DNA from: an uncultured Acidobacteriota bacterium
Lineage (GTDB): Bacteria > Acidobacteriota > Thermoanaerobaculia > UBA5066
Direction: 5' to 3'
Length of the DNA stretch: 64,000 nucleotides
Assembly (NCBI GenBank): GCA_963836285.1
Contig: CAWIIN010000001.1
Span: 482,080-546,079, forward strand
Part shown: positions 11,310-53,711 of the stretch, piece by piece
Position numbering within the stretch: position 1 is the stretch's first letter
How the letters are laid out: every line of letters begins with the position of its first letter
Program-made: the position numbers and the translations under genes
Notes under the pieces: model-generated
The model's input: the letters and a program-made list of their open reading frames with translations, nothing else
What the model was told of the DNA's origin: nothing
Database searches by the model: none

Positions 11310-13364
11310 CTACCTGAGGAGATTGTCCTCGACGAACTTCACGCCGGCGTAGAACTGGAAGTCCTGGTTCTTCTTCTTCGAGAAGCCGTGTCCCTCGTCG
11401 TTGGCCATGAGGAACCACACGGGTCCGCCGTTCTTCTTGATCGCGGAGACCATCTGCTCGGCCTCCGTGTACGGCACGCGCGGGTCGTTCTTCCCCGCGA
11501 CGATGAACATCGGCTTCGTGATGTTCCCCGCGCTCGTGAGAGGCGAGACCCTCTCGAGGAACGCACGCATCTTCGGGTCGCGCTCGTCGCCGTACTCGAC
11601 GCGCCTGAGGTCGCGACGGTAGGCCTCCGTGTGCTCGAGAAACGTCACCCAGTTCGAGATCCCGACGACGTCGACCGCGCACCGGAACCGGTCGTTGTAG
11701 TGCGTCATCGAGGCGAGCGTCATGTAGCCGCCGTAGGAGCCGCCCGTCACCATCACGCGGCTCTTGTCGAGCCCGGGCTGCGCGGCGATCCAGTCGAGGA
11801 GGGCGCCGACGTCCTTGACCGTGTCCTCGCGCTTCTCACCGTTGTCGAGCGCCAGATACGTCTTGCCGAACCCGCTCGAGCCGCGCACGTTCGGGAAGAT
11901 CATCGCGACGCCGAGCTCGTTCATGAAGAAGTTGTTGCGTCCGAGGAAGCCCGGCTGGAACTGTCCCTCCGGTCCGCCGTGGATGTTCACGATCACGGGC
12001 CGCGGCCCCGCGAACGAAGCGGGCGGGCGATACAGGAACCCCGTGATCGTCTTCCCGTCGAAGCTCTTCCACGAGATCGCTTCCGGCTCGGAGAACGTCG
12101 CCGCGTCGAGGCCGCCCGTCTCGCTCTCGGTCCAGCGCGCGAGCCGGCCCGTCGTGACGTCCACAGAGTAGACGTCCGACGGCGAGCGCGCCGACGAGAG
12201 CGAGAACGCGAGCTCCTTCGAGTCCGAGCGGAACCGCAGGGAGCCGATCGTGCCGAGCGCGAGCTTCGGGAGCGGCAGCTCGCGGCGCGTCTTCAGGTCG
12301 AGGACATGGAGCGTCTCGGCCCCCGCGTCGTTGAGGACGTACGCGATCTTCGAGCCGTCGTCGGACAGGTCGAAGCCGTTCACGTCCCACTTCACGTCCG
12401 GCGTGAGCACGTCCCACTTCCGCGTCTCGACGTCGACGGCGACGAGCCGGTGGAACTCGTCGTCCTTGTCGCTCGTCAGGTAGACCGTCCTGCCGTCCGG
12501 GGAGAACCGGGCGCGCCCGTAGGAGACCATTTCCTTCGTCTCCGGCGTGAACAGGGTCTTCGCCCCGCTCGCGACGTCGACGAGGTAATAGCGGCTCTCG
12601 TTCGCCGAGATCGCTTCCGCGACGAGCAGGGACCGGCCGTCCGGCGCCCAGTCCGTGGCAAACCAGCCGCCGCCTTTCCCCTGCAGGACGAGCCGCTCCG
12701 TCTTCGAGTCCGACGGGTCGACCACGTAGACGTCGTTGTCCCGGCCGGTCCGTTTCGTGGATTCGTACGCCAGCCACTTGCCGTCGCGCGTGAACGGGCC
12801 TTCCGTGTTCCGCGACTTGCCGTCCGTGAACATCGACACCTTGCCCGTGCGCCCGTCGCGCAGGAAGAGCTGGAACCACTCGCCGCCGCCGACGTCCTTT
12901 CCGAACACGATGTCGTCGCTCTTCGGGCGGTACCGGGCGTTGCCGACGCGTTCCGGGTAGAACGTGAGCTGCGTCCGGGCCCCGCCCGGCATCGCGACGC
13001 GGTGAATCTGCGGGACGTCCGCGAAGCGCGTCGTGATCAGGATCTCGCGCCGCGTCGGGTGCCAGTCCGAGAAGCCCGCGGCCCGGGAATCCCCGTACGA
13101 AGCGGCCTGCGCGGCGATCGCCTTCGGGATCGGCGGGATGCCGTCCAGGACGAGCTGCTCGTTCGGGACGACGACGTCATCGGCGCACCGCGCCGGGAGA
13201 GGGAAGAAGAGAATGCTGCTCAGAAAGAAGAGAAAGGAAAGAGGAAGAGAAAGGGGGAAATGAAGGAAAGGACGAAAACGAAGAGAAGATTTTCTTAGAA
13301 GGTGAAGAGGGGCCGCAGCCCGCCCGCCCCCGGTGCCGTGAGTCGTGCGCATCGCAACCTCCAC
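11310..13364 (-). CDS. S9 family serine peptidase (prolyl oligopeptidase/dipeptidyl aminopeptidase with beta-propeller)
   Basis: 684 aa with TolB-like propeller repeats (FSPDG, WAPDG). The catalytic motifs are GGSYGGYM, ..D.RV.. and the His region NDEGHGF. The first ~60 codons are encoded by the repeat element, so the start is uncertain. Confidence 0.85.
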   Translation of the reverse strand: MEVAMRTTHGTGGGRAAAPLHLLRKSSLRFRPFLHFPLSLPLSFLFFLSSILFFPLPARCADDVVVPNEQLVLDGIPPIPKAIAAQAASYGDSRAAGFSDWHPTRREILITTRFADVPQIHRVAMPGGARTQLTFYPERVGNARYRPKSDDIVFGKDVGGGEWFQLFLRDGRTGKVSMFTDGKSRNTEGPFTRDGKWLAYESTKRTGRDNDVYVVDPSDSKTERLVLQGKGGGWFATDWAPDGRSLLVAEAISANESRYYLVDVASGAKTLFTPETKEMVSYGRARFSPDGRTVYLTSDKDDEFHRLVAVDVETRKWDVLTPDVKWDVNGFDLSDDGSKIAYVLNDAGAETLHVLDLKTRRELPLPKLALGTIGSLRFRSDSKELAFSLSSARSPSDVYSVDVTTGRLARWTESETGGLDAATFSEPEAISWKSFDGKTITGFLYRPPASFAGPRPVIVNIHGGPEGQFQPGFLGRNNFFMNELGVAMIFPNVRGSSGFGKTYLALDNGEKREDTVKDVGALLDWIAAQPGLDKSRVMVTGGSYGGYMTLASMTHYNDRFRCAVDVVGISNWVTFLEHTEAYRRDLRRVEYGDERDPKMRAFLERVSPLTSAGNITKPMFIVAGKNDPRVPYTEAEQMVSAIKKNGGPVWFLMANDEGHGFSKKKNQDFQFYAGVKFVEDNLLR

Positions 13365-13436
13365 CTTCTAAGAAGTCCGAATCCGGATCTTCATCCGAGT
13401 CCGAATCTTCATCCGTATCCGAATCTTCTTCTTAAG
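13201..13436. repeat. inverted-repeat element, copy 3 (fills the spacer between the Gre-domain gene and the S9 peptidase and extends into the peptidase ORF)
   Basis: An ~85-nt polypurine tract precedes the left arm GATTTTCTTAGAAGGTGAAGAGGGG (13288..13312). The right arm is CCTCCACCTTCTAAGAAGTC (13358..13377). Three tandem 18-nt units, TCCGAnTCCGnATCTTCA, follow (13376..13429). Confidence 0.85.
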
Positions 13437-19999: not shown

Positions 20000-20635
20000 T
20001 CAGCCGAGCGCGCCGAGGAACCGGTAGCTCTTCAGTTCGTGTCCGAGGAAGCTCCTCCGCGCCTCGCGGACGAAGTCCTCGAGCGCGTCGAGCGCGCCCG
20101 GAGCCGGCGGCCTCGCCGCGAGCACGGAAAGCGGGTGCTTGCGGACGGCCGCGAGCGCCTTTCGGGCGGCCTCGGGCGCCTCCTCCTCGTCGAGGACGCC
20201 CGCGAACCTCAGGAGCCAGGTCTCGAAGTAACGGGTCGCGAGCGGCGCCGGGGCGCCCGCCTCGAGCGCGTCGAGGACGTGTCTCACGAGACGGTAGACG
20301 TCTCCCCCGAGCTCGGATTCGGGCACGAACGTGAGGGCGCTTTCGGCCATGTACGGAAGGAGCATTGCCGCAGAGGCGTTCGCGGCGAGGTCGAAGGCGC
20401 TCCGGACGATCTCGAGACCGTCCACGCGCGCGAGGTCCGCGCCTTCCTTGCGGAAGTAGGTGAGCGAGAGCTCCGTGAGGAGCTGGAGCGCGGCGGCGCG
20501 TTTCGACCTGCCGCGCGCCCCGCGAACGGCCGCGCGGACGACGCCGTGGTCTTTCGTGAGGAACGCCGCGACGAGATCCTTCTCGGAGAGCGGGTCAAGC
20601 TTCAGAATGAACGCCGTGGTCGAGACGAGCGCCAT
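20000..20635 (-). CDS. recO: DNA repair protein RecO
   Basis: 211 aa with an OB-fold N-terminus (AFILKLDPLSEKDLVAAFLTKDHGVVRAAVRGARG). The recO-glyQS synteny is conserved. Confidence 0.8.
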   Translation of the reverse strand: MALVSTTAFILKLDPLSEKDLVAAFLTKDHGVVRAAVRGARGRSKRAAALQLLTELSLTYFRKEGADLARVDGLEIVRSAFDLAANASAAMLLPYMAESALTFVPESELGGDVYRLVRHVLDALEAGAPAPLATRYFETWLLRFAGVLDEEEAPEAARKALAAVRKHPLSVLAARPPAPGALDALEDFVREARRSFLGHELKSYRFLGALG

Positions 20636-21944
20636 GCGTGACGATTCTGCGCCCGCCGGCCGGACGGGACTGCCGCGCGCCGTCGTCCGACTCGGGTGGG
20701 TGTCGTTCCTGACGGACGTCTCGTCCGAGATGATCGTCCCTCTCCTCCCGGCGTTCCTGACGACGCTCTCGGGCGTCCCCGCGACGGCGCTCGGCTGGAT
20801 CGAGGGCGTCGCGGACGCGACCGCGTCGTTCGTGAAGATCCTGTCGGGCAGGTGGACGGACCGCGCGAAGGCGAAAAAGCCGCTCGTCTTCCTCGGCTAC
20901 GGCCTGTCGTCCTGCGCGCGGCCACTGATCGGCCTCGCGCCGGGCTGGCCGGCGATCGTCGTGATCCGCTTCTTCGACCGCGTCGGGAAGGGCATCCGCA
21001 CCGCCCCGCGCGACACGATGATCGCGGCGGCGGCGCCGCCCGAGCGCCGCGGCGCAGCGTTCGGACTGCACCGCGCGTTCGACAACGCGGGCGCGGTCTT
21101 CGGCCCGCTCCTCGCGGCGGGGCTCGTGGGATGGATGGGGCTGGGCCTCAGGACGGTCTTCCTGCTCGCGGCCATTCCGGCGGCTCTCTCACTCCTCGTC
21201 CTGGCGTTCGGGGTGAAGGAAGATGGGAAAAGAGAAGAGAAGATTTCTTTGAAGGTCAAGGGCGCTGGGGTGGGCGGTGCGCCGCTCGACTCGCGCCGCG
21301 GTTCCCCGCCGCCCTCTTTACCACTCGAAGGAAAATCCACCGTCCCCCCGGCCGGGGCATCACCGGATGCGCTCGGGTCCGAAGCCAAACTCCCCCCGGT
21401 CTTCTGGCGCACTTCAAGCGTGTTCGCGCTCTTCGCGCTTGCCGCGTCGTCGGACACGTTTCTTCTTCTCAAAGCGAAAGAGATCGGGATCGCCGCCGCC
21501 TGGCTGCCCATCCTCTGGGCGTTCTCGAACGCCGTGAAATCCCTCTTCTCGACGTGGGGCGGGGGGCTGTCGGACCGTTTCGGCAGGCGGCGGCTGCTCT
21601 TCGCCGCATGGACGCTTTACGCGGTCTGCTACGCCGGCTTCGCATTCGTCACGTCCGCGGCGCCCCTCGTCGCGCTCGTCGGCGTCTACTCCCTCTACTA
21701 CGCGCTCTCGGAGGGAACGGAGCGTGCGCTCGTCGCCGACCTCGTCGCCCCCGAGATGCGCGGCCGGGCGTTCGGCTGGATGAACGGCTTCGTCGGCTTC
21801 GCGGCGCTACCCGCGAGCGTCGTCTTCGGCCTCGTCTGGCAGGCTGCGGGCTCGAAGATGGCGTTTCTGGCGGGATCGGCCGTCGCGGCGGTCGCCGTCC
21901 TGGGCCTCGTGACGCTCGTTCCGAAGCGGCGCAAGGCCGGGTAA
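20634..21944 (+). CDS. MFS transporter with a repeat-element insertion in the central loop
   Basis: The sequence shows 12-TM-like hydrophobicity, FLTDVSSEMIVPLLPAFL, and the GRWTDR motif between TM2 and TM3. The start is uncertain: the ATG at 20634 overlaps the recO start codon. Confidence 0.7.
   Translation: MRDDSAPAGRTGLPRAVVRLGWVSFLTDVSSEMIVPLLPAFLTTLSGVPATALGWIEGVADATASFVKILSGRWTDRAKAKKPLVFLGYGLSSCARPLIGLAPGWPAIVVIRFFDRVGKGIRTAPRDTMIAAAAPPERRGAAFGLHRAFDNAGAVFGPLLAAGLVGWMGLGLRTVFLLAAIPAALSLLVLAFGVKEDGKREEKISLKVKGAGVGGAPLDSRRGSPPPSLPLEGKSTVPPAGASPDALGSEAKLPPVFWRTSSVFALFALAASSDTFLLLKAKEIGIAAAWLPILWAFSNAVKSLFSTWGGGLSDRFGRRRLLFAAWTLYAVCYAGFAFVTSAAPLVALVGVYSLYYALSEGTERALVADLVAPEMRGRAFGWMNGFVGFAALPASVVFGLVWQAAGSKMAFLAGSAVAAVAVLGLVTLVPKRRKAG
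21214..21338. repeat. inverted-repeat element, copy 5 (in frame in the central loop of the MFS transporter)
   Basis: A purine tract precedes the left arm AGATTTCTTTGAAGGTCAAGGGCG (21241..21264). The right arm is GCCCTCTTTACCACTCGAAGGAAAATCC (21311..21338). Confidence 0.8.
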
Positions 21945-38251: not shown

Positions 38252-38260
38252 TATCGAATA

Positions 38261-38414
38261 GCGGGGAAAGACCGGAAGAAGGGATTTCTTCGAATGAGTG
38301 GGGAGCGGTCGGACGCCGAGTGACCGCACGTTCGGGCCCGCCGCACCGGCCCCACTCAACCTTCTAAGAAATTCCGAATCCGAATTCCCTCTTCCAATCC
38401 GAAATCCGAATCAC
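38261..38414. repeat. inverted-repeat element, copy 9 (fills the infB-DUF503 spacer)
   Basis: The left arm is GGATTTCTTCGAATGAGTGGGG (38282..38303). The right arm is CCCCACTCAACCTTCTAAGAAATTC (38350..38375). A CCGAATC-rich tract runs from there to 38414. Confidence 0.85.
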
Positions 38415-38756
38415 ATGATCGTCGCCATCGCCGTCTTCGACTTCCACCTGCCGTCCTCGAGGGGGCTCAAGGAGAAGCGGGCGTTCCTGCGCCCGCTCAA
38501 GGCGCGGCTCCGCGGCGACTTCGAAATCTCGGCCGCCGAGGTCGCGCACCAGGACCTCCTCCAGCGTGCCGCTCTCGGCGTCGCCGCGGTTGGGCCGGAT
38601 CGGGAGGCGCTGGAGCCGTTGCTGCAGAAGATCCTGTCGTACGTCGAGGGATACGCCGAAGAGAACGGCGCCGAGATCGCGGCGGAACGCCACGAATTCC
38701 TCAATTACGGCGACGTCGGCGCCGCGGGAAGCGCGTTCGGAGCCAACGGAGACTGA
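38415..38756 (+). CDS. DUF503 (YlxP-like) protein
   Basis: MIVAIAVFDFHLPSSRGLKEKRAFLRPLKARLR.., the typical DUF503 N-terminus. It occupies the usual position between infB and rbfA. Confidence 0.75.
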   Translation: MIVAIAVFDFHLPSSRGLKEKRAFLRPLKARLRGDFEISAAEVAHQDLLQRAALGVAAVGPDREALEPLLQKILSYVEGYAEENGAEIAAERHEFLNYGDVGAAGSAFGANGD

Positions 38757-45324: not shown

Positions 45325-47088
45325 TTAGCGCGCGAAGAGCGCGTCGCGGCTCGTCTTCGGAAACTCCCTCAGGCGCCGCTCCGGCGGCGCGACGCCCTGG
45401 GGCTCGACGAGCGCCATCCCCCGGTCCCCGGTCCTGACCCAGTAGCGGAACGCGCGCAGCGCGGTGTCGTAGGAGCGGTCGTCGCCGCCTTCCTCGACGT
45501 AGCGGCGGATTTCCTCGGCGGCGGCCTCCGGTCCGAGCTCCCCTTCCGCGAGCGTCGCGTACACGAGCGTGTCCGAGAAACGGTGGCGCGCGTCGTAGAT
45601 CGTCGACGGGAGGAGGGGCACGAGGGACAGCACCACGGCCGGCGCGGCGAGAAGCATCGCGGCTCTCCAGTTGTGTCGTCGAATTTCTCCGAGTGTGAAG
45701 AGAAGGAAGAGCCCGGCGCCGAGGGCCAGCGGCCCGGCAACGGCAACGCGGTATCGGGACGTCGTCTGGACGAGGAGACACGCCGCGAGCGGCGTGAGGA
45801 TCCCGACGAATGCCAACAGCCCTTCCTCCTTTCTCAGAACGCCGCGCGACAGCGCCGCGCAGATCCCGACTCCCCCGATTCCCAGCAGGCACGGAAAGAC
45901 CGGGAGCATCCTCAGGATCTTCAATCGGTCCCTGAAAAAGTAGAAGTTCGCATTGTCCGGGACCTCGAAGACGTTGAAGAACGTCGCGAGCTTTTTCAGG
46001 AAGAGCTTCGGGAGCTCGAGCGGCGTCTCCCGGTAGCCCGCGAGGACGAGCTTCGCGGTCTTCCACGTCGATCCGCCCGCTTCCTCCAGGATCTCCTTCA
46101 TCCCGGGAGGCGGGTTCGTCGTCGCGTCGGCGCCGAAGCCGTTCCCCCAGGCGAGGCCGATCGCCTGCCGCGTGTCGAACGTGAGCGGCGGGACGCCGGC
46201 GGAGACGTTCCGCACGGCGAGGACGCCGAGCGGCATCGCGAGGCCGAGGAAGCCCGAAGCCACGGCCAGAGAGCGGCGGCGAACGCCGCCGCCCGGGGAT
46301 TTCTTTGAAAGTGAATAGAGAGAGAAAAGCGCAAGGGGGAGGACCGTCTGCTTCATGAGGGTCGCCGCGCCGCCGAGCAGGCCGAGCGCGAAGGCGCCCC
46401 ACGCCGCGCGCATCGATCTCCCGCGATCCCCGCTCGAAGAAACCCCTTCGTGCTCATCGGACCTGGCCCGCGAGACGAGCGGCAGCGCGACGAGAAGCGT
46501 CGACAGGTGCGCGACGGGACCGTCGCGGTAGAGGAAGAAGTCGTGGAAGACGAGCGGGCCGTAGCCGCCGTAGAGGATGCCCGCGGCGACGGCGCACCAC
46601 GCGGCGACACGAAGCGATCGGTCGTCGACCGGCGCGCCGCCCCTCTTATCCTTTCCAAGAAAATCTTCTCCGACTCTTTGAACTGCCGCCGCGAGAACGG
46701 CCGAGGCGACGCACGCCAGCAGCATCTGCAGCAATCTCGCGGGCAGGAACGGCGACCCGAAGATCTTCCGGAGGACCGCGAGGCCGTACGGATACAGCGG
46801 TCCGGCGTAGTACGCGTTTTTCTGGTACCAGCGCTCCCACGTCTCCGGAGGACCGTACTCCCGCTGCCAGTTGAAATACGCGCGGTAAGCCGGGACGTCG
46901 GCCCAGTTCCCCGCGGCGAGCCGCGCCGACCACTCGACGTACGCGTGCTCGTCCGTTTCCGTCCAGAGGTACCACGACGCGAGCGGTGTCGCGAGAAGCG
47001 ATGCGAGCGCCGCCGCCCGCAGCGCGAAGACGAACGCGAACGCGGCGAGCGGCGCCGCGACGCGCGCGCGGGACGGGAGCGACGGCAC
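45325..47088 (-). CDS. polytopic membrane glycosyltransferase (GT39/ArnT-PMT-like) with a C-terminal soluble region; carries repeat-element arms in frame
   Basis: 587 aa with many TM helices. The N-terminal motif region is ETDEHAYVEWSARLAAGNW..GPLYPYGL, typical of ArnT-like enzymes. Confidence 0.65.
   Translation of the reverse strand: MPSLPSRARVAAPLAAFAFVFALRAAALASLLATPLASWYLWTETDEHAYVEWSARLAAGNWADVPAYRAYFNWQREYGPPETWERWYQKNAYYAGPLYPYGLAVLRKIFGSPFLPARLLQMLLACVASAVLAAAVQRVGEDFLGKDKRGGAPVDDRSLRVAAWCAVAAGILYGGYGPLVFHDFFLYRDGPVAHLSTLLVALPLVSRARSDEHEGVSSSGDRGRSMRAAWGAFALGLLGGAATLMKQTVLPLALFSLYSLSKKSPGGGVRRRSLAVASGFLGLAMPLGVLAVRNVSAGVPPLTFDTRQAIGLAWGNGFGADATTNPPPGMKEILEEAGGSTWKTAKLVLAGYRETPLELPKLFLKKLATFFNVFEVPDNANFYFFRDRLKILRMLPVFPCLLGIGGVGICAALSRGVLRKEEGLLAFVGILTPLAACLLVQTTSRYRVAVAGPLALGAGLFLLFTLGEIRRHNWRAAMLLAAPAVVLSLVPLLPSTIYDARHRFSDTLVYATLAEGELGPEAAAEEIRRYVEEGGDDRSYDTALRAFRYWVRTGDRGMALVEPQGVAPPERRLREFPKTSRDALFAR
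46297..46446. repeat. inverted-repeat element, copy 11 (in frame inside the GT39-like CDS)
   Basis: The left arm is GGATTTCTTTGAAAGTGAATAGAGAGAGAAAAG (46297..46329). The right arm is TCCCCGCTCGAAGAAACCCC (46427..46446). Confidence 0.65.
46640..46671. repeat. solo right arm inside the GT39-like CDS
   Basis: CCCCTCTTATCCTTTCCAAGAAAATCTTCTCC. Confidence 0.6.
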
Positions 47089-50769: not shown

Positions 50770-50964
50770 CGAGAGAAGAGCGAGAGACGAAAGAGATGAG
50801 GAAAGAAGAGGGGAAGAGAGATTTTCTTCTGAAGGGAATGGGGCGGGAGTCGCGCCGCGGCTCGCGACGCGCGGCGGTGCCGCCCTCTTCCCCTTCTAAG
50901 AGAATCCCCGGTCTCCCCTCTTCACCTTCTCAGAGATTCTTCTCTTCTCCTTTCTTCGTCTCCG
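50770..50964. repeat. inverted-repeat element, copy 12 (fills the actB-actC spacer; two right arms)
   Basis: A ~50-nt polypurine tract precedes the left arm GAGATTTTCTTCTGAAGGGAATGGGG (50818..50843). The right arms are CCCTCTTCCCCTTCTAAGAGAATCCCC (50883..50909) and CCCCTCTTCACCTTCTCAGAGATTC plus a polypyrimidine tract (50916..50964). Confidence 0.9.
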
Positions 50965-52962: not shown

Positions 52963-53711
52963 TGCGCCGCGCGCTCCTCCCCCTCGTCGCGCTCGCTCTC
53001 GCCGGCTGCCGCAACGACATGCACGACCAGGCGAAGACGAAGCCTCTTCGCGAGTCGCCGTTCTTCGCGGACCACGCGTCGGCCCGGCCCCTGCCCGAGG
53101 GCGTCGTCGCGCGGGGCTTCCTTCGCGCCGACGCGGTCCTCTACCGCGGCCTCGGCCCGGACGGGAAGTTCGTCCTCGACCTCCCGGTTCCCGTCACGAG
53201 GCCACTTCTCCTCCGCGGGCGCGAGCGCTTCGACGTCTACTGCTCGCCCTGCCACGGGCGCGCGGGCGACGGCCAGGGAATGATCGTCCAGCGCGGCTTC
53301 AAGAACCCGAGCACGTTCCACGTCGACCGACTCAGGAACGAGCGCGCCGGCTACTTCTTCGACGTCATGACGAACGGCTTCGGCCAGATGTCGAGCTACG
53401 CCTCGCAGGTCGCGCCGGAGGACCGCTGGGCGATCGTCGCCTGGATCCGCACGCTGCAGGCCTCACAGGACATGCCGAGAGAATTTCTTGCTAAAGACGA
53501 CGAAGGGAAGCTCGAGGCGAAAACGGCAAGCGGCGAGGCAGGGGCCATGGCGCAGAAGAGTTCCTTAGAAGGTGACAGCGGGGTAACGGCCGCGCACCCG
53601 GCCCCCGGCGCGGCTCCGGCGGCGCCCGGGCCCTCTTCACCTTCTAAGAAATCTTTCTCTTCATCTTCGTCTTCCCCTTCCTCGTCCTCTCCTCCGAGCA
53701 AGACGCAATGA
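52962..53711 (+). CDS. actE: alternative complex III subunit ActE (monoheme cytochrome c lipoprotein) with an ~80-codon repeat-element-encoded tail
   Basis: It has the lipobox LALAGC and a single CSPCH heme motif. The conserved body ends near ..WAIVAWIRTLQASQ (~53470). The ORF then stays open through the repeat element to a stop that overlaps the actF ATG. Confidence 0.8.
   Translation: MRRALLPLVALALAGCRNDMHDQAKTKPLRESPFFADHASARPLPEGVVARGFLRADAVLYRGLGPDGKFVLDLPVPVTRPLLLRGRERFDVYCSPCHGRAGDGQGMIVQRGFKNPSTFHVDRLRNERAGYFFDVMTNGFGQMSSYASQVAPEDRWAIVAWIRTLQASQDMPREFLAKDDEGKLEAKTASGEAGAMAQKSSLEGDSGVTAAHPAPGAAPAAPGPSSPSKKSFSSSSSSPSSSSPPSKTQ
53478..53695. repeat. inverted-repeat element, copy 13 (between the actE body and actF; two left arms)
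   Basis: A left-arm-like sequence, GAGAATTTCTTGCTAAAGACGACGAAGGG, lies at 53478..53506. The left arm GAAGAGTTCCTTAGAAGGTGACAGCGGGG is at 53555..53583. The right arm GGGCCCTCTTCACCTTCTAAGAAATC plus a polypyrimidine tract is at 53628..53695. Confidence 0.9.

What the first reader, a model, noticed from the sequence alone, without database searches (positions are those of the whole stretch)
21214..21338. Element copy in frame in the central cytoplasmic loop of an MFS transporter
The + strand ORF reads ..LAFGVKEDGKREEKISLKVKGAGVGGAPLDSRRGSPPPSLPLEGKSTVPPAG.. across the polypurine tract, left arm, spacer and right arm. No stop occurs in that stretch.

The insert lies between the two six-helix halves of the transporter, which is the position most tolerant of insertions. 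This fits a selfish element that survives only at permissive sites.
Basis: partly seen in the sequence, partly recalled or inferred. Interest (0 to 1): 0.65.

Follow-up and report, generated by a model that had tools for sequence, protein, structure and literature searches.

The report
Repeat element translated inside transporter loop
A copy of a palindromic repeat that litters this soil acidobacterium's genome sits in frame in the flexible linker between the two halves of a membrane transporter. It has stayed there across a whole genus, and in some relatives a loop segment including a repeat arm is flipped end to end without breaking the protein.

Summary
Window 21215-21338 holds a polypurine tract, a left arm (41 bits against the family profile, where a composition-matched control genome gives nothing above 18 bits), an 83% GC spacer and a right arm. 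All of it is read without a stop inside the MFS gene (20634-21944).

The insert is residues 197-235. It lies between helix 6 and helix 7 and is modelled as disordered.

- **Family:** about 480 arms in this genome. All 25 genomes of the genus have it; none of 16 outgroup genomes do.
- **Orthologues:** same-genus orthologues carry element DNA at the same site (63-241 nt). The two outgroup orthologues have a 51-nt GC-rich loop with no motif. The insertion is therefore old, about 117 nt.
- **Closest known kind:** Rickettsia palindromic elements.

- The arm core is 95% identical across 14 species, while synonymous sites beside it are 50-68% identical, despite very rare codons.
- A different loop segment of at least 115 nt, including an arm, occurs in opposite orientations in orthologues whose flanks are 96-97% identical. 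Both orientations stay open.
- At least 77 of 354 element loci genome-wide lie in frame in genes.

How the element spreads is unknown. No Y1 transposase was found and no target-site duplication.

The parts
20634..21944 (+). MFS transporter gene (436 aa with this start; the start codon is uncertain, and source annotations of this gene and its orthologues range from 414 to 445 aa)
   Evidence: PF07690, E 4.8e-39; thousands of homologues; conserved synteny glyQ-recO-MFS-small ORF-radical SAM.
21215..21244 (+). Polypurine tract of the element, translated as K-E-D-G-K-R-E-E-K-I (overlaps the native VKE codons at its 5' end)
   Evidence: The profile consensus has a GA-rich 25 nt upstream of the core. 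GC is 44% together with the left arm.
21245..21264 (+). Left arm TTCTTTGAAGGTCAAGGGCG. The consensus TAG is replaced by TTG, which is required in this reading frame. Peptide: (I)SLKVKG.
   Evidence: 41 bits; other genes of this genome carry the same EEKISLKVK reading, and in that frame the arm never has TAG.
21265..21311 (+). GC-rich spacer (83% GC), translated as AGVGGAPLDSRRGSPP
   Evidence: It aligns with the spacers of L002, L003, L009, L011 and L012.
21312..21338 (+). Right arm variant CCCTCTTTACCACTCGAAGGAA plus flank AATCC, translated as PSLPLEGKS. The consensus TAA is replaced by CGA.
   Evidence: the right arm is present in 16 of 22 in-genus loci; the PFEE/TFEE frame is used by 20 other in-gene arms.
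21339..21389 (+). Remainder of the loop (TVPPAGASPDALGSEAK). It is 51 nt, the same length as the whole outgroup loop, and is probably the native linker. Its first codons resemble a common right-flank variant of the element (AAAACCACCG).
   Evidence: L021 and L022 loops are 51 nt. GSEA[KN]LPP is widespread among orthologues. Searches show the flank variant.

Best explanation
**Origin.** In an ancestor of this Thermoanaerobaculia genus, one copy of an abundant palindromic repeat was inserted into the DNA for the central linker of an MFS transporter. The repeat has a polypurine tract, a 20-nt AT-rich arm, a GC-rich spacer, an inverted arm and a pyrimidine-rich flank. The insertion lies directly after the last residues of helix 6.

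**Effect on the protein.** The copy is read through in a frame in which the consensus arms would give TAG and TAA. It therefore carries the stop-free variants TTG and CGA. It adds 39 disordered residues (197-235) between the two six-helix halves. The transporter tolerates this, and both halves remain under strong purifying selection.

**Later history.** The loop has been reshaped by deletions, duplications, capture of a second small palindromic repeat, and inversion of loop segments. Nearly always the length stays a multiple of three with no stop.

**Shown:** family membership, frame, position, absence from outgroups, turnover and inversion in orthologues, and arm conservation.

**Inferred:**
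- The event was a single insertion.
- The peptide has no function of its own.
- The arms persist because their nucleotide sequence is maintained, either by selection as a cis signal or by homogenisation with other copies.

The enzyme or process that spreads the family is not identified.
For: **Family and score**
- 273 arms against 2 in the control, 483 against 1 with the profile, and 41 bits for the MFS left arm.

**Frame and structure**
- the frame is open.
- six helices on each side, with pLDDT below 50 at residues 199-249.

**Orthologues**
- same-genus loops are 63-241 nt and carry recognisable arms. L002 has a near-consensus complete element with both tracts in frame. The outgroup loops L021 and L022 are 51 nt, GC-rich and have no motif.
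- the family is present in 25 of 25 genomes of the genus and 0 of 16 outgroups, matching the distribution of the insert.

**Foreign composition**
- codon log-likelihood is -0.37 per codon in the insert against +0.55 to +0.61 in the halves. The arms use ATT, TCT, TTG, TTA and CCA, each 0-5% of its synonymous codons.

**Gene still selected**
- flanking positions 1 and 2 are 91-92% identical and position 3 is 50-68% identical.
- the arm core GAGAAGATTTCTTTG is 95% identical, and 97% at third positions.

**Not an isolated case**
- at least 77 of 354 element loci are in frame in genes.
- In frames where the consensus has a stop, TAG is replaced by TCG or TTG.

**The family does insert**
- the copy at 38252-38415 is present in 3 genomes, with a remnant in a fourth.
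- That site is a 9-12-nt gene junction in 11 same-genus genomes.
Against: - No truly empty site exists within the genus. The insertion is inferred from only two outgroup orthologues at 55-57% identity.
- The own copy no longer folds better than shuffled sequence (z -0.89), and its right arm is below the profile threshold.
- In Ser/Thr kinase paralogues of this genome, arms lie over native segments with no length change at the left arm. Arms can therefore also arise or spread without a simple insertion.
- 4 of 21 relatives' loops are not a multiple of three. Two of these assemblies also show frameshifts in neighbouring genes. The other two are unresolved and could be real disruptions.
Confidence: 0.85

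Rival explanations
1. The arms are a functional cis-acting signal, for example a recognition or recombination site of a genus-specific system. The copy in the MFS loop is kept because of that function. On this reading the loop is an intragenic invertible cassette whose orientation recodes the linker.
For: -: the arm core is 95-97% identical across 14 species, against 50-68% at neighbouring synonymous sites.
- the codons conserved there are very rare.
- a loop segment is found in both orientations. A quick tree gives at least 5 orientation changes, and one pair of sisters has flanks 96-97% identical.
- arms are retained while the spacers of homologous copies diverge to 23, 46 and 130 nt.
Against: - No invertase or other partner protein has been identified.
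- Both orientations have been seen only between lineages, never within one sample.
- Many lineages have lost one arm or both.
- The own copy has a weakened hairpin.
- Ascertainment inflates the conservation figure, because only loci with a recognisable arm were compared.
- Gene conversion from hundreds of other copies could give the same pattern.
Confidence: 0.2
2. There was no insertion. The arms were written onto a native, already long loop by gene conversion or by a mutation-plus-drive process, as with DNA uptake sequences. The spacer would then be native loop DNA.
For: -: in kinase paralogues the arms overlie native segments on either side of the alphaC helix, with no length change at the left arm.
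- spacers of different copies are mostly unrelated to each other and are GC-rich like ordinary DNA.
- PMC2346458: uptake sequences are known to sit inside genes and as inverted pairs.
Against: - The loop is 117 nt longer than in the outgroups, and that is the size of one element.
- The stretch after the element is 51 nt, the full outgroup loop length.
- At 38252-38415 a clear gain of 79-239 nt replaces a 9-12-nt junction, so the family does insert as DNA.
- Homologous occupied alleles have very different spacers. Fast spacer decay therefore explains why spacers are unrelated, without invoking native DNA.
Confidence: 0.07
3. The gene is a pseudogene or an assembly artefact, and the open frame across the element is accidental.
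For:: four relatives have loops out of frame.
Against: -: the frame is open in this genome and in the 54 aligned protein-database orthologues (these were collected as called proteins) plus 17 of 21 genome loci.
- both halves are strongly conserved at amino-acid level but not at third positions.
- two of the four out-of-frame assemblies also have frameshifts in neighbouring conserved genes.
- an independent contig confirms the loop sequence.
Confidence: 0.02

Closest known systems
Rickettsia palindromic elements (RPE; Ogata et al. 2000, 2002, as summarised in PMC10969869)
   Same: - Palindromic repeats of about 100-150 bp, present in many copies.
- A large share are inserted in frame in unrelated protein-coding genes and read through as extra peptide segments at structurally tolerant places.
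   Different: - No sequence relationship, and a different phylum: free-living Acidobacteriota with 70% GC.
- Only the two roughly 20-45-nt arms are conserved. The spacer is free in sequence and length, whereas each RPE is reported to encode a conserved peptide (PMC10969869).
- All six orientation and frame combinations are used, with stop-free arm variants.
- The arms stay conserved at orthologous sites across a genus.
- Loop segments invert in frame.
Bacterial MITEs (Correia/NEMIS, ERIC, BOX, RUP; PMC10969869)
   Same: - Short non-autonomous repeats with terminal inverted repeats.
- Mostly intergenic, occasionally intragenic with in-frame fusions.
- Presence or absence varies between relatives.
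   Different: - No target-site duplication at the one occupied/empty site examined. The native 9-12 nt were replaced instead.
- No parent insertion sequence was identified.
- The outer ends are fuzzy purine and pyrimidine tracts of variable length.
REP/BIME elements and REPINs mobilised by RAYT transposases (from general knowledge)
   Same: - Hundreds of short palindromic units.
- Often found as inverted pairs near gene ends.
   Different: - No Y1 (IS200/RAYT-type) transposase domain was found in this genome, which is 92% complete.
- The arms are AT-rich in a GC-rich genome.
- Many copies lie inside genes.
DNA uptake sequences of Pasteurellaceae and Neisseriaceae (PMC2346458)
   Same: - A clade-specific motif with hundreds of copies in both orientations.
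- It lies inside genes as well as in inverted pairs at gene ends.
- It is conserved at the nucleotide level.
   Different: - The motif here is much longer and comes with real DNA gain: 117 nt here, 79-239 nt at 38.3 kb.
- Competence and biased uptake are untested.
Intragenic invertons (bioRxiv 10.1101/2023.03.11.532203, also PMC10028968)
   Same: A segment inside a coding region, bounded by inverted repeats, is found in both orientations. Both orientations keep the frame and recode the protein locally.
   Different: - Both orientations are shown here only between lineages, not within a population.
- No invertase is identified.
- The recoded part is a disordered linker.

Membership tests
The window's own repeat family (polypurine tract, TTCTTAGAAGGTGAAGAGGG arm, spacer, inverted arm) | Left arm with upstream purine tract matching the family profile | tested here: met
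   41 bits at 21220-21269. The control genome has no hit at 18 bits or more.
The window's own repeat family (polypurine tract, TTCTTAGAAGGTGAAGAGGG arm, spacer, inverted arm) | Inward-facing right arm at a typical distance (the commonest spacer length is 40-50 nt) | tested here: met
   - The spacer is 47 nt.
- The right arm is the ..CCA[CT]TCGAAGAA variant. It scores below the profile threshold.
- It is shared with 15 orthologous loops and with intergenic copies such as window 38300.
Rickettsia palindromic elements | Palindromic repeat of about 100-150 bp inserted in frame in protein-coding genes and read through | tested here: met
   - the frame is open.
- at least 77 of 354 loci lie in frame in genes.
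Rickettsia palindromic elements | Sequence homology to an RPE family, and a conserved element-encoded peptide along the whole element | tested here: not met
   - Only the arms are conserved. Spacers are unrelated to each other.
- Rfam gives no hit.
- The family is restricted to one Thermoanaerobaculia genus.
- No direct comparison with RPE sequences was run.
MITE | Terminal inverted repeats | tested here: met
   the arms are reverse complements of each other. 68 pairs were found by mismatch search and 134 by profile.
MITE | Target-site duplication flanking the insertion | tested here: not met
   in the occupied versus empty comparison at 38252-38415 there is no duplication, and the native junction is replaced. 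This is one site only.
MITE | Related autonomous insertion sequence with the same terminal repeats | not tested
   No search for arms flanking a transposase gene was made.
REPIN/RAYT system | A Y1 (PF01797) transposase gene in the genome | tested here: not met
   no match in the own genome (92% complete). The control genomes gave hits.
DNA uptake sequence | Preferential uptake of motif-bearing DNA by a competent cell | not testable with these tools
   This needs uptake assays. Only the distribution pattern was seen.
Intragenic inverton | A segment within a coding region found in both orientations, both keeping the frame | tested here: met
   - L005, L010 and L014 against L031 and L032 score 88-106 on the reverse complement and 13-21 forward.
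- P0039 against P0058 scores 111 on the reverse complement and 23 forward, with flanks 96-97% identical.
- This is seen in orthologues, not in the window's own copy.
Intragenic inverton | Both orientations coexisting in one population, and a dedicated invertase | not testable with these tools
- only fragments exist for the window itself.

The most novel reading that the evidence does not exclude
The repeat arms are the maintained cis sites of an undescribed, genus-specific DNA system. Inside genes such as this MFS transporter they create in-frame invertible cassettes. Recurrent flipping recodes a disordered linker (for example GVPSDAGACCLSEASSRAKEEGTP to GVPSSLARELASLKQHAPASEGTP) without breaking the protein. 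On this reading the arms are kept by selection on their nucleotide sequence and do not decay as selfish DNA would.
Probability: 0.2. Interest if true: 0.8.

Novelty: new variant of a known kind. Interest (0 to 1): 0.55.

Why it matters
Repeats read through inside proteins are textbook-known almost only from Rickettsia. This is a second system, in a free-living, high-GC soil lineage, and apparently undescribed in the literature searched. At least a fifth of its repeat loci lie in frame in genes.

The MFS loop gives an unusually clean natural series:
- a short loop in outgroups
- a full element in some species
- deletions, duplications and in-frame inversions in others

This series shows how a membrane protein's linker absorbs foreign DNA.

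The arms resist decay at synonymous sites and use the genome's rarest codons. That argues against pure junk and makes the question of what recognises these arms directly testable. For annotation, these loops explain the length variation and the apparent frameshifts in this gene family.

Tried and rejected
- **Rfam** scan of the whole window: nothing.
- **Plasmid collection** blastn with the element: nothing.
- **RNA fold** of the own copy: no better than shuffles, z -0.89. I make no claim that this copy has a functional hairpin.
- **Y1 transposase** search: none.
- **Spacer type A versus type B as an inversion between the two arms.** The reverse complement aligns better in some pairs (z up to 5.7 against 1.9). 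For the closest pair, P0004 and P0005, it is only z 1.9 against 1.1. The spacer ends are themselves palindromic. I leave this unresolved.
- **P0101/L033 as an empty site.** Rejected. It keeps the right-flank variant GAAAAAACCAACG, so it is a deletion derivative.
- **Out-of-frame loops in four relatives as evidence of gene splitting.** Two of the assemblies have frameshifts in neighbouring conserved genes. I do not treat the frameshifts as biology.
- **Public reads.** Only short fragments cover the window.
- **Literature.** Searches for a described repeat family in Thermoanaerobaculia found none.

Full report
**1. What is at the coordinates**

The + strand ORF from ATG 20634 to the stop at 21944 encodes a 436-aa protein. 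It matches Pfam MFS_1 (PF07690, E 4.8e-39). It reads ..LAFGVKEDGKREEKISLKVKGAGVGGAPLDSRRGSPPPSLPLEGKSTVPPAG.. with no stop.

On the DNA the stretch divides as follows:
- purine tract, 21215-21244
- left arm TTCTTTGAAGGTCAAGGGCG, 21245-21264
- spacer, 21265-21311
- right arm CCCTCTTTACCACTCGAAGGAA, 21312-21333, with flank to 21338

GC content is 44% for tract plus left arm, 83% for the spacer and 48% for the right arm, in a gene of 70% GC. The start codon is uncertain, because the divergent recO gene starts at the same place. This does not affect the loop.

**2. The repeat family is real and the copy belongs to it**

Other copies in the window have the same plan: 13260-13400, 38290-38400, 50810-50960 and 53570-53700. 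The plan is GA-rich tract, TTCTTAGAAGGTGAAGAGGG, GC-rich spacer, CCCTCTTCACCTTCTAAGAA, pyrimidine-rich tract.
- In the whole 3.87-Mb genome the 20-mer has 273 matches with up to 4 mismatches. A third-order Markov control gives 2.
- A 50-nt profile finds 483 arms at 16 bits or more, against 1 in the control. The MFS left arm scores 41 bits.
- 134 inward-facing pairs have spacers most often 40-50 nt long, 75% GC and mostly unrelated to each other.
- Rfam has no match. Two literature searches found no description of such a family in this class.
- All 25 genomes of the genus carry 36-192 arms with up to 2 mismatches. None of 16 outgroup genomes of the same order carries any.

**3. Position in the protein**

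An AlphaFold model built on 54 orthologues has mean pLDDT 78 and pTM 0.78.
- It shows helices up to residue 193 and from residue 255, six transmembrane helices on each side.
- Residues 199-249 have pLDDT below 50.
- The insert, residues 197-235, therefore lies in the disordered central linker.
- That this linker is cytoplasmic follows from the general MFS topology (established knowledge). It was not tested here.

**4.

Homologues at 65-88% identity are named MFS transporters of Acidobacteriota or Thermoanaerobaculia. They lie in the same gene order, glyQ-recO-MFS-small ORF-radical SAM.

The stretch between the conserved anchors VKE and LPP varies:
- It is 21 to 100 residues (counted from VKE to the L of LPP) in 54 proteins.
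- It is 63 to 241 nt in 19 same-genus genomes.
- Nearly all carry recognisable element DNA at the same place.
- L002 has a near-consensus complete element, with both tracts entirely in frame: gaagaagagaagatTTCTTTGAAGGTGAAGAGGG..CCCTCTTTAACACTCGAAGAAtcttcttctttgtcttc.
- The two outgroup orthologues (another family of the order, 55-57% identity) have a 51-nt GC-rich loop with no motif.

The own loop is 168 nt, so the excess is 117 nt. That equals the insert at 21222-21338, and the remaining 51 nt equal the outgroup loop length. I found no empty site inside the genus. L033 lacks both arms but keeps a right-flank remnant, so it is a deletion derivative. The simplest reading is one insertion before the genus radiated.

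**5. Foreign composition and retained gene function**

- Codon log-likelihood per codon is -0.37 in the insert, against +0.61 and +0.55 in the two halves.
- The arm codons are very rare among their synonyms: ATT 5%, TCT 4%, TTG 1%, TTA about 0%, CCA 2%.
- Across 14 species the 120 nt on each side of the loop are 91-92% identical at codon positions 1 and 2, but only 50% and 68% at position 3. This shows purifying selection on both halves.

**6. The copy is not decaying like junk**

The 15-nt arm core GAGAAGATTTCTTTG is identical in 10 of the 14 species that keep a left arm. Mean pairwise identity is 95%, and 97% at third positions. The right arm is present in 16 of 22 in-genus loci, with 83-89% identity.

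Only loci with a recognisable arm were compared, which inflates the figure. Even so, identity over 15 nt is not expected where neutral sites are 50-68% identical. Either the nucleotide sequence is under constraint or it is homogenised from other copies.

Nearly all copies share the minority TTG variant, which is 10-12% of arms. This argues for common descent and against frequent conversion from consensus copies.

**7. Frames and stops genome-wide**

I used a codon-usage classifier. It gives a median of +38 per 60 codons for true frames and negative medians for all other frames.
- 77 of 354 element loci have both 180-nt flanks coding in the same frame with no stop across.
- This is a lower bound. 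The MFS copy itself was missed because only one arm scored.
- All six orientation and frame combinations occur.
- In frames where the consensus has TAG, TGA or TAA, the arms carry TCG, TTG or CGA instead.
- The MFS copy uses the EEKISLKVK frame on the left and the PFEE-type frame on the right. Both need such variants. Both peptides recur in other genes of this genome.

**8. Turnover and inversion in the loop**

Orthologous loops show the following changes:
- spacer deletion (L013, L017)
- loss of one arm (L016, L019, L020; L006, L008)
- duplication of the right arm (L015, P0012, P0072)
- capture of a second, roughly 70-nt palindromic module

That second module occurs in opposite orientations:
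- L005, L010 and L014 against L031 and L032 give local scores of 88-106 on the reverse complement and 13-21 forward.
- The two orientations encode GVPSSLARELASLKQHAPASEGTP and GVPSDAGACCLSEASSRAKEEGTP.
- On a quick maximum-likelihood tree built without the loop columns, the orientation changes at least 5 times.
- The sisters P0039 and P0058 (SH-aLRT 99) differ in orientation.
- Their DNA is 96-97% identical over 570 and 540 nt of flank, while the loop scores 111 on the reverse complement and 23 forward.
- The inverted part includes the arm, which is a left arm in one and a right arm in the other.

Both loops are multiples of three (156 and 147 nt). The loop is bounded by short purine and pyrimidine inverted repeats: AAGGAG at VKE, and CTTCCTCC or CTCCCTCC at LPP.

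Whether the spacer between the two arms of the own type of loop has also flipped in relatives is unresolved.

**9. Does the family insert?**

The copy at window 38252-38415 lies between a stop codon and the next start.
- It is present in G000, G014 and G006, with a remnant in G003.
- In 11 same-genus genomes the site is a 9-12-nt junction, TGAGGCGGTCGCCGTG.
- There is no target-site duplication. The native junction is replaced.
- The three occupied alleles keep the arms but have spacers of 23, 46 and about 130 nt.

So the family does add DNA, and spacers diverge much faster than arms. This explains why spacers of different copies look unrelated. No Y1 transposase is present.

**10. A caution from the kinases**

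In a family of Ser/Thr kinase paralogues the arms lie over native segments on either side of the alphaC helix: VAVKVLPEDFLEGEEGKARFQREA...AAIYSFEEIPSSSS. There is no length change at the left arm. This suggests that arms can also spread by conversion. For the MFS loop the 117-nt excess argues for insertion.

**11. Out-of-frame loops**

Four relatives have loops that are not a multiple of three.
- The G020 and G007 assemblies also show frameshifts in the neighbouring recO or radical-SAM genes, so assembly error is likely.
- G006 and G003 are unresolved.

**12. Comparison with known systems**

The closest known kind is the Rickettsia palindromic element: many copies, often in frame in unrelated genes (PMC10969869). 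The differences are these:
- no sequence relationship
- conservation confined to the arms
- use of all frames through stop-free variants
- persistence of the arms at orthologous sites
- in-frame inversion

It is not shown to be a classical MITE, because no target-site duplication was seen. It is not a REPIN system, because there is no Y1 transposase. Its distribution resembles uptake sequences (PMC2346458), but it brings real DNA gain. The inversions resemble intragenic invertons (10.1101/2023.03.11.532203), but were seen only between lineages.

**13. Verdict**

- It is incomplete about why the copy persists.

Earlier notes of this scan had already flagged the family and other in-frame copies in this genome. 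I treated them as leads and re-derived the family statistics independently.

Noticed in passing
window 38252-38415: An intergenic element copy shows clear presence/absence variation.
- It is occupied in G000, G014 and G006, with a remnant in G003.
- In 11 same-genus genomes the site is a 9-12-nt gene junction.
- There is no target-site duplication, and the downstream start changes from GTG to ATG.
- The spacers of the occupied alleles are 23, 46 and about 130 nt.
   Followed up: yes
outside the window: G000:C2:1274952, C2:438062-438163, C2:457390-457491 and further paralogues at C2:425-457 kb: Ser/Thr kinase paralogues carry both arms laid over native segments flanking the alphaC helix: ..VAVKVLPEDFLEGEEGKARFQREA..AAIYSFEEIPSSSSSS... 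The 'spacer' encodes the helix. At the left arm there is no length change, which points to conversion, not insertion.
   Followed up: partly
L005, L010, L014, L031, L032, L039-L041 (orthologous MFS loops); own genome G000:C3:640486-640533, C1:571162-571209, C2:1079952-1079991: A second, low-copy palindromic repeat (..CCTTGGCGCGTGAACTCGCTTCGCTCAAACAGCACGCGCC..) is intergenic in this genome. In relatives it has entered the MFS loop, where it is read in both orientations.
   Followed up: partly
L009, L012/L024, L015/L028 (G021, G020, G007): These few-contig assemblies show frameshifts in the conserved recO, radical-SAM or MFS genes within about 4 kb. Apparent frameshifts in these genomes should not be read as biology.
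   Followed up: partly
window 20607-20636: The divergent recO and MFS genes have overlapping start regions (CAT at 20633-20635, ATG at 20634-20636). Source annotations of this gene and its orthologues range from 414 to 445 aa, and orthologue calls overlap recO by about 29 nt. The true MFS start is uncertain.
   Followed up: no
window 38370-38412 and other copies (for example G000:C1:631135-631165, C2:602817-602847): Some arms are flanked by a GGATTC tandem hexamer run (ggattcggattcggatt) in place of the purine tract.
   Followed up: no
window 46276-46686: Two further arms were classified as in frame inside a minus-strand gene by the codon test. This agrees with an earlier first-reader note about a GT39-like glycosyltransferase.
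   Followed up: no
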